Part shown: positions 25,314 to 59,279 of the stretch, in pieces
How positions within the stretch are numbered: the first letter of the stretch is position 1
Layout of the letters: the number at the start of each line of letters is the position of its first letter
NCBI GenBank assembly: GCA_964016885.1
Contig: OZ024756.1
Location: 43,586,001-43,650,000, forward strand
Length of the DNA: 64,000 nucleotides
Origin: Eledone cirrhosa
Taxonomy: Eukaryota
Direction: 5' to 3'
The notes under the pieces: generated by a model
Seen by the model: only the letters and a program-made list of their open reading frames with translations
Told to the model about the DNA's origin: nothing
The model's database searches: none
Translations under genes and position numbers: made by a program

Positions 25314-25640
25314 CTTTTACAGACTTCAAAAGTGAGTAATCACCAGGACTTGTATAACATTGATAATTTGTTGCATCATTGCAATTAAGCTTATTTTTCC
25401 AGCAGTGATACTCTCCATTCCATCCCTTAACTGCTGGTAATTTACAGTCAAAACCAGGTGGTAATATTCCTTTGTTATATTTATTTGTAATAGGGTTGCG
25501 AGACATTTTTATAAAAATTGACCCATTTTTAAGGACACTCAAGACAGTTGGCCAACTGAGGTCATCAGTTAATTTACATGTTATATTTAATCTAGAAAAT
25601 GATCCAACTTCAAATTCAGGTGTTATATTTAGTGATACCC
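25314..25640 (-). CDS. IgSF paralog 1, Ig-like domain 1 exon (327 nt, phase 1-1)
   Basis: TAG|...|GTAAGT. GVSLNITPEFEVGSFSRLNITCKL...GFDCKLPAVKGWNGEYHCWKNKLNCNDATNYQCYTSPGDYSLLKSVK shows an LNITC B-strand and a DxxxYxC F-strand with extra cysteines. Confidence 0.85.
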
Positions 25641-26696
25641 CTATATATAAAATATGGAAGAGGTGAAAATGATTAGATAAAGATTTATTTAAAAAATAAC
25701 ATATATAATGGCAGGTAGAGAAAAACTAAGATAAAGAAGAAAAAGAAGAAGAAGCATGGAGACTGATGGATAGAAACATGGAGAATGAGGTGGTGTGTAT
25801 GACAGTAAAATTTGTGTATCGCCTTTGTTAGATTGGTTGCCCCATTAGATAAGTCGGGTCAGGTGACCATGCCTTGCTCATATAGAACTATTTCTGGCTT
25901 GGTTTCTACAGCTGGATGCCCTTCCTAATGCCCACCATATTTGTAGTGTGGTGGGTACTTTTAGTTGTGACTCCTACATGACCACTTTACAGTGTGTACT
26001 TGAAGATTTTGTTGTGTCACCTATACAACCACATTTACAGTGTAGTCTTGGTGCTTCTTGCGGTGTTTCTTACATTGCCACTTTACAGTGAGTACTAGGT
26101 GCTTTGTGTTGTGACACATACACAGCCACATTTACAGTGTGTACTGCGTGATTTTTGTTGTGACACCTACACAACCACTTCACAGTGTTGGCTGGGTGTT
26201 TTTTGTTGTGACACCTACATGACCACTGTAGTTATATATACAAGGGTGACTGGTAACTCTGAAGATATGTGCTAACATTTATTGCATTTATAGAAAATGT
26301 TTAATGTTTTATGTTGGCAATTGAAGATTCAATTATGCTAGGAATTTTGTAGATCCTTTCCAGTTATGACTTATAGCATTAACACCAAACATCCTGCAAA
26401 CATTAATATATGCTGTATGATACCTACATTACACATATAAATTGAACATAGCCGATATACGAATGTTCCTGTCGTACACACCCAACCATTATGGAACACA
26501 TATTGCATTACAATTTAGGAAATAAGAACACCAATAGATAAAAATCAAGCTAATACAACCATGTACACTTTCATATATTTTACATACACACATCTAATGG
26601 TAACAAGAGCGAATGTATAAAAATACATGATTCGGTCCCTTAACCCCTCAACACTTACATCTAACGTAAAACTGATACACATATATATATTTATGT

Positions 26697-27531
26697 TATA
26701 TATATATATATATATATATATATATATATATATATATATATATATATATATATATATATATATATATATATATATATATATAACCAAAATCAGTTCTGTG
26801 AGAGCAAAACACGATCCTCCAACCTGGCTGTCTCACAACAGGATAGCACGTCCTACCCATGCTAGAGTGGAATATGGACGTTAAACAATGATAATGATGA
26901 GGATGATGGATGGAACTTATATGGTCCAACAAGAGTGCTAAACATCGCTCCTTGTTTGGTCAAACACACACACACACACATATGTATATATATATATATA
27001 TATATATATATATATATATATATATGTATATATATATATATATATATATACATATGTATATATATATATATATATACATATATATATATATATATATATA
27101 TATATATATATATATATATATATATATATATACATATGTATATATATATATATATATATATATACATATGTATATATATATATATATATATATATACATA
27201 TGTATATATATATATATATATATATGTATATATATATTAATAAGAGGAATTCCAACTTTGTCTGATTTACTCGTTTTATTTACAATCCTTTAAAATATAT
27301 ATAATATAATGGTATTATAATGAAATAGTATGATAGAATATTAAATTCTAAGTGTTAATTGAACAAGTACTTTCATGCTTTCGCAATCTTCAGGTTCATG
27401 ATATGTGGTGACAGTCGAGTTTGCAATATATATACATATGTATATATATATATACATATGTATATATATATATATATATACATATGTATATATATATATA
27501 TATATATATATATATATATATATATATATAT
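26697..27531. repeat. (TA)n/(TACA) microsatellite tracts
   Basis: Runs at 26697-26782, 26983-27236 and 27427-27531. Confidence 0.95.
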
Positions 27532-27823
27532 AAAAACAAATAACGAAACGAAATTAAATTTCGTTTCGTTTGTAACTCACTTTTGTATGACTGACGCTTA
27601 AACAATTAAGTTAAAAATGTACATCCACATATGTATACTGAAATACTAGTATGCATATGAATACACACACGTGTACATATGTAGATGTACCGAGTTTTCA
27701 CTGGTCACTTTACTGTGAGTGTCCAGCTATTCTGTATGTAGACACACAGACAAACCGGTTCTTAGAGTCATACTGGTTTTTGAGGAAACACCTTTCCTCT
27801 ATTCTCCAGAAAGCCAGACAAGG

Positions 27824-27868
27824 AATATTGGACTAGTTTCGATGTTGTTACATCTCATCAGCAATATT
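27824..27868 (-). ncRNA. Minimal type I hammerhead ribozyme (second minus-strand copy at 28289-28333)
   Basis: Reverse complement of the motif at 29042-29086. Confidence 0.85.
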
Positions 27869-56390: not shown

Positions 56391-56705
56391 TTTTATCTGT
56401 AAGGAAGACTTCAAAGTCAAGTTTCATATTCAATACTAAACAGGTGATGGTTATATTGGGGTAGTCTTCAATTGTTACGTTGTAGTCAAACTGTGACTCT
56501 AATGAAACATAACATTTGTTAATTTTTGGAACATTCACATATTTTAGACTGACTGTTGCTTCGTTACTTCCACGTGTTACACTCCATATAAACAGGACAT
56601 ACTCTTCAGAATTTGGGACAAAATCTAAATGACATCTGAAGGTAGATATCTGGTTAATTTTGTGGTTCTTAGTGTCAGACGTCAGATCTTTCATATAAGA
56701 TTTAG
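56391..56705 (-). CDS. IgSF paralog 2, Ig-like domain 2 exon (315 nt, phase 1-1)
   Basis: CAG|...|GTGAGC, open frame, about 82% amino-acid identity to paralog 1. Confidence 0.85.
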
Positions 56706-56899
56706 CTGAAAATATAAAATGTAAATCTTAGTAAAATAAATAATGAAATGAAACCTTGGCTGCTTTCATTGATACAAACAACTAAAATGTTGAATGTGGA
56801 GGTTGCATCTGATAGGACACTCTGGAAGGCATGTGTGAGGACTCTGCCCTAACAATACTCTCATGTTGAGGAAGAGAAGAATATCACCCAAATATTTTG

Positions 56900-58120
56900 T
56901 GACACAGAAGCAGGGTAAATGCAATGAGGAACAAGATGTATATGACAATAACTACACACCCGCTAATGACACCCAATCCAACAAAGGGGTCAGTTCTACA
57001 ACTCAGCAGTGACATAGTAAGACAATTGAGGATACAAAGACAGACAAATCAAGTGGACTACCGGGCCTAGTTGTTGAGATGCTGCAAGCACCTTGGATGG
57101 TAGGTCACATCATAACTAATTGTATCATAAACCAAGTAATACAAAGTAATGTCATACCCAATGACTGGTGTAGCTGGAGCATAGACAACTACTACATAAG
57201 CAAAGGATGGGCTCTAGACAGAGAACAATATAGAAGTAACAAGTTGAGGAACCAGGACATGAAACTTACAGAAAGAGTTATCATGTTGCTGATTAGGGAC
57301 CAAATTAAACCAAAGAGGATACAGTTCAGATTTATGCCAAGTAAACATATTACTGATGTCCTCTTCTTTGTGAGGCAAATGCAGGTAAAGTACCTAGCTA
57401 AACATAAGCCTCTACATGGCATTTGTTGACCTGAAGAAAGTATTTTACAAAGTCCTTCATTCATTAATCTGGTGGGCTGTTAGAAAACTAGGGGTAAATG
57501 AGAGACTTCTGAGGGTGGTATAAGCCATGTATTAACAATTATTATAGTGAAGAATTTAGTGTGTAAATGTGGGTTCTTCAAGGGACTGTTCATAGCCCTC
57601 CCCTTCTTTATTATTATTATCTTGCAGGCTATAACAGAATAGTTTAAGACTGAGTGCCCATGGGAAATCCTATATGCTGATTATCTAACTCTCATTAGCT
57701 GAAATTATGGCAGAAATAGAGAACAAAATTCATACTCTAGAAGTAAAAGGTCATAAAGTCAACTAGGCAAAGACTAACTTACTAGTAATTAGAAAGGAAA
57801 GACTAAACTTTTAGTAATTAGAAAGGAAAAGAAGGTCCTGATAGCTTCGGGGAGTAATCTTGCTTAATGTACAGGAGATGAATGAGTAGAAATTCTATCC
57901 TGTGTTCCAAATGATGACTATAGGTATACAAGTGATGTAATATGATCTCAGACAGCCTAACAAAGATGTAGGTTTTATAAGTGGTTGATAAATAGGAGCA
58001 GTTAACAGTAAGGGCTCACGGACAACAAGCTCTATTAGATAGTCAGAGGACTCCATAGAAGTAGTTGATAGCTTCTGTTACCTGCATGACTAAATTAGCA
58101 GTGGAGGTGTGTGTTTTGAA
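56900..58120 (+). mobile_element. Decayed RTE LINE fragment (largely deleted in paralog 1)
   Basis: IPNDWC, KG.ALDR, QFRFMP and RQMQVKYLAK, similar to the element at 62131-63953. Confidence 0.75.
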
Positions 58121-58955
58121 AGTAGAGAAATATAACACTGACACAAAGACTCACACACACACTATAGAGAAACATAACACTGACACAAAGACTCACACAC
58201 ACACTATAGAGAAACATTACATTACACACACACACACTATAGAGAGATGTTACATACACACACTATAGAGAAACATTACACTACACACAAACTAGAGAGA
58301 GATATTGGACACACACACACTATAGTGAAACATTACATTACACATACATACTATAGAGAAATATTACACACATACACACGCAAAACTTTAGATTTCATAT
58401 ACACACTATAGTGAAATAATACACACACACAATATAGAGAAAGATACATACAAAGACAGAGGAAACATTACATTACGCAGACACATACACACATATATAC
58501 ATACATACACACACATACAAACAGTCACACATACACATACACACATATATACATACATACACACACATACAAACAGTCACACATACACATACACACAGAT
58601 ATACATATATACACACACATACAAACAGTCATACATACACATACACACATATATACATACATACACACATACACAGTCATACATACACATACACACAGAT
58701 ATACATACATACACACACATACAAACAGTCACACATACACATATACATACATACACACACATACAAACAGTCATACATACACATACACATATATATACAT
58801 ACATACACACACATGCAAACAGTCACACATACACACATACATACATGTGCACACACATATATATATAATATAGATAACATTAAAAACAATAAGTATTTCT
58901 AACTGAAATGAAACAACAAAAGTGATGACTAATGAGAAAATGGAATAAAACTTAC

Positions 58956-59279
58956 TTTTTACAGACTTTGGTGGGGATGTTTCCTTATTTGTGGCACATT
59001 GAAAAGTTGTTGCATCTTCGCAATTAGGGTTATTTTTCCAACACTGATACTCTCCATTCCATCCCTTATATGCTGGTATTTTACAGTCAAAACCAGATGT
59101 AACTACTCCTCTCTGAAATCCACCTGTACCTTTGTTGTAATTCCATTGTATAACCTGAGTTCCATTTCGTAGGAGTTTCAAGACAGTTACCAAATTTAAT
59201 CCACTAATTACCTTACATGTTATATTTATTCTAGCTGATCCAACTTCAAATGCAGGTGATATAGATTTGATTGATACCC
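58956..59279 (-). CDS. IgSF paralog 2, Ig-like domain 1 exon (324 nt, phase 1-1)
   Basis: CAG|GVSIKSISPAFEVGSARINITCKVISG...GFDCKIPAYKGWNGEYQCWKNNPNCEDATTFQCATNKETSPPKSVK|GTAAGT. Confidence 0.85.

What the first reader, a model, noticed from the sequence alone, without database searches (positions are those of the whole stretch)
25314..59279. Ig domain 1 exon is far more diverged than the introns flanking it
Seen: Ig1 of paralogs 1 and 2 share only ~58/110 residues with small in-frame indels. Divergence is concentrated between NITCK and GFDCK and after the last Cys, while all five cysteines are retained. The adjacent ~100 nt of downstream intron differ by ~2 substitutions and 2 small indels, and the upstream ~90 nt by ~7. 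The two visible leader exons are identical. The gradient Ig1 << Ig2 < TM is what a membrane-distal ligand-binding domain under an arms race or self/non-self discrimination would show. Exon-limited gene conversion from a distant paralog is the alternative explanation.
Basis: partly seen in the sequence, partly recalled or inferred. Interest (0 to 1): 0.8.

Follow-up and report, generated by a model that had tools for sequence, protein, structure and literature searches.

The report
Octopus Ig-like genes with divergent tips
Two neighbouring copies of an unnamed octopus cell-surface gene are almost identical except in two patches of their outermost immunoglobulin-like domain, likely because DNA exchange between the copies evens out the rest while selection keeps different binding faces for a still unknown partner.

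Summary
Domain 1 (D1) of paralogs A and B differs at 85 of 321 nt, the introns touching it at 8 of 187 (p=2e-11). The genes belong to an unnamed, chromosome-clustered family with two Ig-like domains. All named homologs found are from Octopus.

Whole-exon dN/dS of D1 is about 1.2 (not above 1). Silent sites in the two variable patches are diverged too (dS about 0.5, against 0.12 in the D1 framework and 0.06 in nearby introns). So the patches look older than their surroundings: a peak of divergence in a repeat unit likely homogenised by gene conversion. The clean positive-selection signal is in domain 2: 23 differences, 0 to 0.5 silent (p about 0.002).

The same patches vary most in other family members and map, by motif, to CDR-like loops. 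One public run holds an apparently spliced B-type contig that uses a second, GPI-signal-like end exon. The identical leaders belong to A and a third gene, not to B. Ligand, tissue and polymorphism are untested.

The parts
38591..38711 (-). Gene A leader (signal peptide) coding exon, phase-1 donor
   Evidence: aligns to the family signal peptides; GT donor and frame join to D1
25314..25640 (-). Gene A D1 exon, V-set-like Ig domain, 5 Cys
   Evidence: AG/GT bounds; 11 octopus homologs among 12 phmmer hits; contigs with 0 and 2 differences
25456..25572 (-). A hypervariable patch H1 (residues 23-61; inferred BC loop to C''/D strands)
   Evidence: 11 of 39 residues identical to B; strand assignment inferred from motifs
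25327..25356 (-). A hypervariable patch H2 (residues 95-104; inferred FG loop)
   Evidence: 1 of 9 identical to B
23982..24296 (-). Gene A D2 exon, C-type-like Ig domain, 3 Cys
21043..21155 (-). Gene A transmembrane exon (TM1)
20954..20976 (-). Predicted 23-nt tail micro-exon of A (identical copy in B at 53933-53955)
   Evidence: AG/GT bounds, keeps frame into the last exon; no read evidence
18770..18791 (-). Predicted last coding bases of A (identical in B at 52676-52697); short tail without tyrosine
   Evidence: inferred
61025..61124 (-). Candidate leader of gene B, unrelated to A's leader
   Evidence: hydrophobic, phase-1 GT donor, joins D1 in frame; no BLASTP match to A's leader; no second copy in window; unverified by reads
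58956..59279 (-). Gene B D1 exon (H1 59095-59211, H2 58969-58995)
56391..56705 (-). Gene B D2 exon; 23 differences from A, 0-0.5 silent
   Evidence: matched by an exon-bounded contig of run X4
54022..54134 (-). Gene B TM1 exon
   Evidence: 3 differences from A, all replacement
53729..53833 (-). Second TM-like exon of B (TM2): 22 mostly hydrophobic residues then a stop, GPI-signal-like; absent from A
   Evidence: 7 of 7 listed X4 variant letters in the aligned TM stretch equal TM2
10596..10716 (-). Leader exon of a third paralog whose other exons lie left of the window
   Evidence: identical to A's leader; downstream intron blocks 3255-4470 and 220-358 match A's first intron; only two D1 and two D2 in the window

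Best explanation
A and B are tandem copies of an octopus gene predicted to encode a cell-surface protein with two Ig-like domains, and gene conversion likely keeps most of the repeat unit alike while selection likely preserves different versions of two predicted binding patches in the outer domain. Shown: exon anatomy, divergence profile, family membership, raised silent and replacement divergence in the patches, and an excess of replacement changes in D2. Inferred: that the patches are older than their flanks, that conversion homogenised the flanks, that the patches form the CDR-like face of a V-type domain, and that selection comes from a recognition partner (parasite, microbe or another cell). 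With no signalling motif in the predicted tail and a GPI-like alternative end, it would act as an adhesion or ligand-binding subunit, not as a self-contained signalling receptor.
For: Step profile across the unit: distal non-coding blocks 82 of 5127 sites (1.6%), introns round D1-D2 32 of 537 (6.0%), D1 framework 20 of 174 (11%), patches 67 of 144 (47%). Non-coding divergence is heterogeneous over 16 blocks (p=7e-21). Patch dS 0.52 against framework 0.125; an 'older patches, same omega' model fits as well as the full model (p=0.56); dS fixed at the intron level is rejected (p=0.006). Silent changes 4 of 13 against 2 of 44 (p=0.02). The same segments vary most elsewhere: 3 disjoint close non-window pairs 37 of 135 against 16 of 176 (p=3e-5; with 5 pairs p=0.004); mean identity 0.29/0.31 against 0.38/0.46 over 91 pairs of 14 domains. 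D2: dS 0, dN 0.10, LRT p=0.002; p=0.001-0.011 with the intron mutation spectrum; 4 of 4 further listed D2 variant letters not found in A or B are replacements. An orthologous D1 stays 107 of 110 identical between O. sinensis and O. vulgaris, fitting stable, paralog-specific D1 types. PMC3924837 describes this exon-high, intron-low peak for opsins (passages).
Against: Two sequences cannot separate conversion from rate variation; no outgroup closer than about 35% was found. Rejection of the same-age model weakens to p=0.02-0.06 when double-base mutations are allowed, and 'same dS, selection only' is only borderline worse than the full model (p=0.056-0.21). Patch omega is 1.6-1.8 and not distinguishable from 1, so selection on D1 is inferred from the peak, not measured. 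D2 dN (22 of 240) is not above its flanking introns (p=0.13), so unusual constraint on D2 silent sites could mimic selection. Across the family D1 is at least as conserved as D2 in 38 of 55 pairs. No confident model of D1 was obtained (pLDDT 44).
Confidence: 0.5

Rival explanations
1. Recent duplication followed by a burst of positive selection on D1 alone; the extra silent changes would be by-products of multi-base mutations and alignment error.
For: Two-class site model: about 35% of D1 codons with omega 8-14, p=0.0005-0.002. Transversion excess in D1 (ts/tv 30/57 against 91/88 non-coding, p=0.013). Four-fold sites 3 of 24 are not significantly above introns (p=0.18). D2 shows that selection acts on this gene.
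Against: Needs omega 14-20 in the patches at intron-level dS; disfavoured at p=0.006-0.06. Whole-exon omega 1.2. The site model cannot tell high omega from greater age. Does not explain the 1.6% to 6% step in non-coding DNA or B's different 5' region.
Confidence: 0.2
2. The patches were imported by short conversion tracts from a more distant paralog or pseudogene (templated diversification), with or without later selection.
For: Raised patch dS. Further D2 and TM variants exist in the laid runs, so more paralogs are available. An O. sinensis gene model joins two different leader+D1 cassettes to one D2.
Against: No donor in the window. A and B D1 are sisters at 100/100 and no known member is closer. 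Two separate tracts would have to hit the segments that vary most family-wide.
Confidence: 0.17
3. A and B are alleles of one hyper-polymorphic locus assembled in tandem, or one copy is a decaying pseudogene under relaxed constraint.
For: Unit identity of 98% in places, large insertion differences, and an artefact-like 465-bp fold-back repeat inside A's first intron. No A-type D2 contig in X4 at the listed places.
Against: At least three D2 types in one sample and a third leader in the window. Both frames are open with in-frame indels only and all cysteines kept. Relaxed constraint cannot make an exon four times more diverged than its introns, nor give 0-0.5 silent changes in 23.
Confidence: 0.1

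Closest known systems
Hydractinia Alr1/Alr2 family (allorecognition complex)
   Same: Clustered, divergent IgSF surface genes with a V-set domain 1 that can set binding specificity and shows selection on one face (PMC9546547 passages; PMC8282982 abstract)
   Different: Alr D1 lacks the B-F cysteines and Alr carries an Fn3-like region, many with ITAM/ITIM tails. Here D1 has five Cys, there is no Fn3-like exon, the predicted tail is short without Tyr or the end is GPI-like; no sequence hit; allelic polymorphism and homophilic binding untested.
Red/green opsin-type peak of divergence under gene conversion
   Same: Exon more diverged than flanking introns in tandem duplicates (PMC3924837 passages)
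   Different: There orthologs prove conversion and the selected residues are known. Here there is one pair, a higher peak (47% in patches), and no ortholog test.
V+C two-domain IgSF surface proteins (CD200, CD80/B7, butyrophilin, SIRP, nectin/CADM)
   Same: Top structural look-alikes of homolog P0007, TM 0.47-0.58; the 37 sub-threshold PDB profile hits carry names of Ig-fold proteins (fold of those proteins from established knowledge)
   Different: No Pfam Ig match for the window domains; extra cysteines; no significant sequence homology (best E=0.086).
Biomphalaria GRC/PTC1 and PTC2 polymorphic transmembrane clusters
   Same: Molluscan clusters of diverse single-pass surface genes tied to parasite resistance (search listing)
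   Different: PTC1/GRC are described with Fn3 domains and disordered regions (PMC13712769 passage), not paired Ig domains; no snail protein among the named homologs.
Drosophila Dpr proteins (recalled, no call)
   Same: Two Ig domains, GPI anchor, specificity in D1
   Different: Dprs are conserved and Pfam-detectable; no hit here and no DIP-like partner tested.

Membership tests
Immunoglobulin superfamily (V-like + C-like) | B- and F-strand cysteines with D-x-x-x-Y-x-C motif | tested here: met
   C21, D88, C94 invariant and Y92 near-invariant over 16 rows; F at that place in B
Immunoglobulin superfamily (V-like + C-like) | Profile match to Pfam Ig families | tested here: not met
   0 Ig hits for 4 window domains; 1 of 12 homologs has a sub-cutoff PF00047 hit
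Immunoglobulin superfamily (V-like + C-like) | Ig beta-sandwich fold | tested here: inconclusive
   Window D1 model pLDDT 44; Atlas model of homolog P0007 (pLDDT 0.74) matches V/C2-set proteins at TM 0.47-0.58; D1 feature hits include V-set clusters at 0.90-0.92
Immunoglobulin superfamily (V-like + C-like) | One domain per exon with phase-1 introns | tested here: met
Unnamed Octopus two-domain family (P0001-P0019 less P0009) | Shared leader, five D1 Cys, three D2 Cys | tested here: met
Alr-type allorecognition genes | Fn3-like region; ITAM/ITIM in many tails | tested here: not met
   D2 joins TM directly and the predicted tail has no Tyr (tail exons inferred)
Alr-type allorecognition genes | Extreme allelic polymorphism in D1 | not tested
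Alr-type allorecognition genes | Allele-specific homophilic trans binding | not testable with these tools
   needs cell aggregation assay
Conversion-resistant divergence peak (opsin type) | Exon peak above flanking introns, silent sites included | tested here: met
Conversion-resistant divergence peak (opsin type) | Introns group by species, exon by paralog | not testable with these tools
   no genome held; no close ortholog

The most novel reading that the evidence does not exclude
Octopuses carry their own clustered Ig-family identity code: interchangeable leader+D1 cassettes with distinct binding faces ride on a homogenised D2 and switchable membrane anchor, giving a cephalopod allorecognition or pathogen-recognition repertoire that evolved independently of Alr, FREPs and protocadherins.
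Probability: 0.15. Interest if true: 0.88.

Novelty: new member of a known kind. Interest (0 to 1): 0.55.

Why it matters
No variable recognition-receptor family of this type turned up for cephalopods in the searches run here. This family gives a concrete candidate with mapped variable patches, testable by resequencing and binding assays. It also shows how dN/dS on a converted duplicate can miss selection at the most diverged domain and find it in the neighbour. The evolutionary pattern itself is known from opsins and other IgSF clusters.

Tried and rejected
Whole genome: none held, so no donor or paralog census.

Searches that found nothing: Pfam gave no Ig match. Word-indexed protein searches found nothing for B D1 among longer proteins or for alignment A3 among 2105-5000 aa proteins. 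P0009 is a repeat-protein chance hit and was dropped. No earlier scan findings.

Structure: the single-sequence fold was unusable and was not fold-searched; no alignment-based model of D1 was obtained.

Lineage asymmetry: the tree's long A branch in D1 (0.88 against 0.12) was not confirmed by a relative-rate count (20 against 21 columns); not claimed.

Family pairs: the D2 0.99 / D1 0.44 pair turned out to be an isoform of one O. sinensis gene model, and P0003 looks like a fused model, so neither is independent replication of the D1<<D2 gradient.

Expression: no RNA holder listed. X4's kind is not on record. Missing A-type or TM1-type contigs in X4 are not evidence of absence.

The Thr/Pro-rich repeat after the last acceptor as a mucin exon: out of frame under the best acceptor, left open.

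Link to skin-sucker self-avoidance: PMC9339708 says only that a skin chemical blocks attachment (passage); recalled, not from a call, that the activity was in a hexane extract, which argues against a surface protein.

Papers: PMC10370119 passages were irrelevant; PMC4795812 not held; the skin-mucus proteome supplement of PMC11431876 could not be read and might list family members.
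Full report
SETTING. The window is AT-rich animal DNA with long microsatellites; no genome is held. A masked self-comparison shows a direct duplication with offsets of 27.5-34 kb. Two minus-strand genes, A and B, each have a D1, a D2 and a transmembrane exon with AG/GT bounds and phase-1 introns. A profile search of all six frames finds only these two D1 and two D2 exons.

OBSERVATION. 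D1 proteins share 57 of 109 columns, D2 86 of 104, TM 34 of 37. D1 differs at 85 of 321 nt, the touching introns at 6 of 82 and 2 of 105 (p=1.8e-11). Differences sit in H1 (residues 23-61) and H2 (95-104): 67 of 144 nt against 20 of 174 in the framework. A's D1 is held by contigs of runs X1 and X3 (one sample) with 0 and 2 differences. The leaders at 38591-38711 and 10596-10716 are identical but are those of A and of a third gene. B's 5' region shares only dispersed repeats with A's first intron and holds an unrelated signal-like exon at 61025-61124.

FAMILY. phmmer over 1.84 billion representatives gave 12 hits; 11 are uncharacterised proteins of Octopus vulgaris, O. bimaculoides and O. sinensis and one is a chance repeat. 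A profile search added four. The O. vulgaris and O. bimaculoides hits each lie on one chromosome-size contig, many with neighbouring accession numbers. They share the leader, five D1 Cys and three D2 Cys; most two-domain members end in a hydrophobic tail without a cytoplasmic part, which I read as a GPI signal (inference). Pfam finds no Ig domain in the window proteins. Ig-likeness rests on the cysteine motifs, 37 sub-threshold PDB profile hits named as Ig-fold proteins, Atlas feature hits and the Atlas model of homolog P0007 matching V/C2-set proteins. By motif, H1 would span the BC loop to the C''/D strands and H2 the FG loop, the CDR-like face (inferred; my own model failed). The best PDB hit (E=0.086) aligns the spare D1 and D2 cysteines with light-chain Cys80 and Cys171, positions that form an interdomain bond in rabbit kappa chains (PMC10038998, listing); a D1-D2 disulfide is a lead.

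SELECTION TESTS. Whole-exon D1: dS 0.30-0.32, dN 0.37-0.39, omega 1.2, p about 0.6 (counting method dN/dS 1.5-2.0, bootstrap p 0.01-0.05). A two-class site model prefers a fast class (omega 8-14, p<=0.002), but it cannot tell selection from age. Fitting patches and framework separately gives dS 0.52 / omega 1.8 and dS 0.125 / omega 1.0. 'Older patches, same omega' loses nothing (p=0.56); 'same dS' is borderline (p=0.056); dS fixed at 0.062 is rejected (p=0.006, weakening to 0.02-0.06 with double-base mutations). Silent changes occur in 4 of 13 same-residue codons in patches and 2 of 44 in the framework (p=0.02). D2 is the reverse: 23 differences, 0-0.5 silent, 0 of 33 four-fold sites, LRT p=0.002, p=0.001-0.011 under the intron mutation spectrum. 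Against this, D2's replacement rate is no higher than its flanking introns (p=0.13), and its dS is below them (p=0.007).

PROFILE. Distal non-coding blocks differ at 82 of 5127 sites, introns round D1-D2 at 32 of 537 (p=9e-9), then 11% in the D1 framework and 47% in the patches. Note that several distal blocks compare A's upstream region and first intron with those of the third gene. This stepped peak is the pattern described for duplicates under conversion with a selected target (PMC3924837, passages). With two sequences conversion is inferred, not shown.

FAMILY CHECKS. H1 and H2 are also the most variable segments outside the window: 37 of 135 against 16 of 176 in three disjoint close pairs (predicted gene models, some may be fused). 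Against a simple 'D1 always fastest' rule, D1 is at least as conserved as D2 in 38 of 55 pairs, and one ortholog pair keeps 107 of 110 D1 residues between O. sinensis and O. vulgaris. One O. sinensis model splices two different leader+D1 cassettes to one D2; this may be real or an annotation fusion on a 57-kb contig.

READS. Four of eight listed runs were laid on 20870-25780. X4, of unrecorded kind, has a 651-nt contig matching 23980-24296 with 23 differences, the A-B count; 9 of the 9 differences listed for it are B's letters. Its ends fit splicing: no overlap with the upstream intron and two extra letters equal to the GT that starts either TM exon. In the TM region 7 of 7 listed X4 letters equal B's second TM-like exon, and depths add up (132.4+91.1 against 223.6), so B is likely transcribed as D1-D2-TM2, ending in 22 mostly hydrophobic residues and a stop. 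Only 40 of 767 variant rows were shown. At least three D2 types occur in one sample, which argues against A and B being two alleles of one locus.

COMPARISON AND NOVELTY. It works like Alr-type or V+C IgSF recognition clusters, but fails Alr's Fn3 and tail features; polymorphism and binding are untested. I found no paper on the family: six locus ids gave 0 papers, topic searches gave none on it (listings only), and PMC9068888 has no 'immunoglobulin' in its main text. The library lacks most subscription papers, and supplements I could not read may list these genes.

VERDICT. Real feature, undescribed octopus IgSF-like family, known evolutionary pattern. Most likely conversion-homogenised tandem paralogs with selectively retained D1 binding patches and recent selection on D2 (0.5). 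Interest 0.55.

Noticed in passing
window 27530-31166: 465-bp unit in 100% identical copies with a fold-back inversion near 28560, between long (TA)n runs; looks like an assembly artefact or a very young element inside A's first intron.
   Followed up: no
window 45600-50700: Two inverted, about 98% identical copies of an element with RT-like and GIY-YIG-like ORFs (Penelope-type by recalled motifs; not scanned).
   Followed up: no
window 32840-35642: Broken LINE-like endonuclease/RT frames in A's first intron; further LINE fragments at 23280-23921, 57013-57800 and 62090-63568.
   Followed up: no
window 18292-18717 and 52415-52650: Length-variable repeat just after the last acceptor, open in a Thr/Pro-rich frame (165 and 88 aa) and an N-x-T-rich frame; could be a mucin-like alternative end or 3' UTR.
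   Followed up: partly
window 53517-53835 against 53847-54127: Older (77%) tandem duplication of the TM exon region in B only, giving TM1 and TM2; possible alternative anchors.
   Followed up: partly
window 59367-60430: 1-kb (TTC)n-type microsatellite starts about 90 nt upstream of B's D1, where homology with A ends.
   Followed up: no
window 41727-41769 and 14086-14128 (approximate): Short AG/GT-bounded segment in the conserved block upstream of each leader; possible 5' UTR exon.
   Followed up: no
P0001, P0002, P0008 (O. vulgaris models): Family members with tandem D1-D2 repeats and Thr-rich linkers; in P0001 the D1 repeats are 87% or more alike, so D1 can be homogenised too.
   Followed up: partly
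P0017 and P0019 (O. sinensis LOC115229977): Two isoforms with different leader+D1 on one D2: alternative cassettes or a fused gene model.
   Followed up: partly
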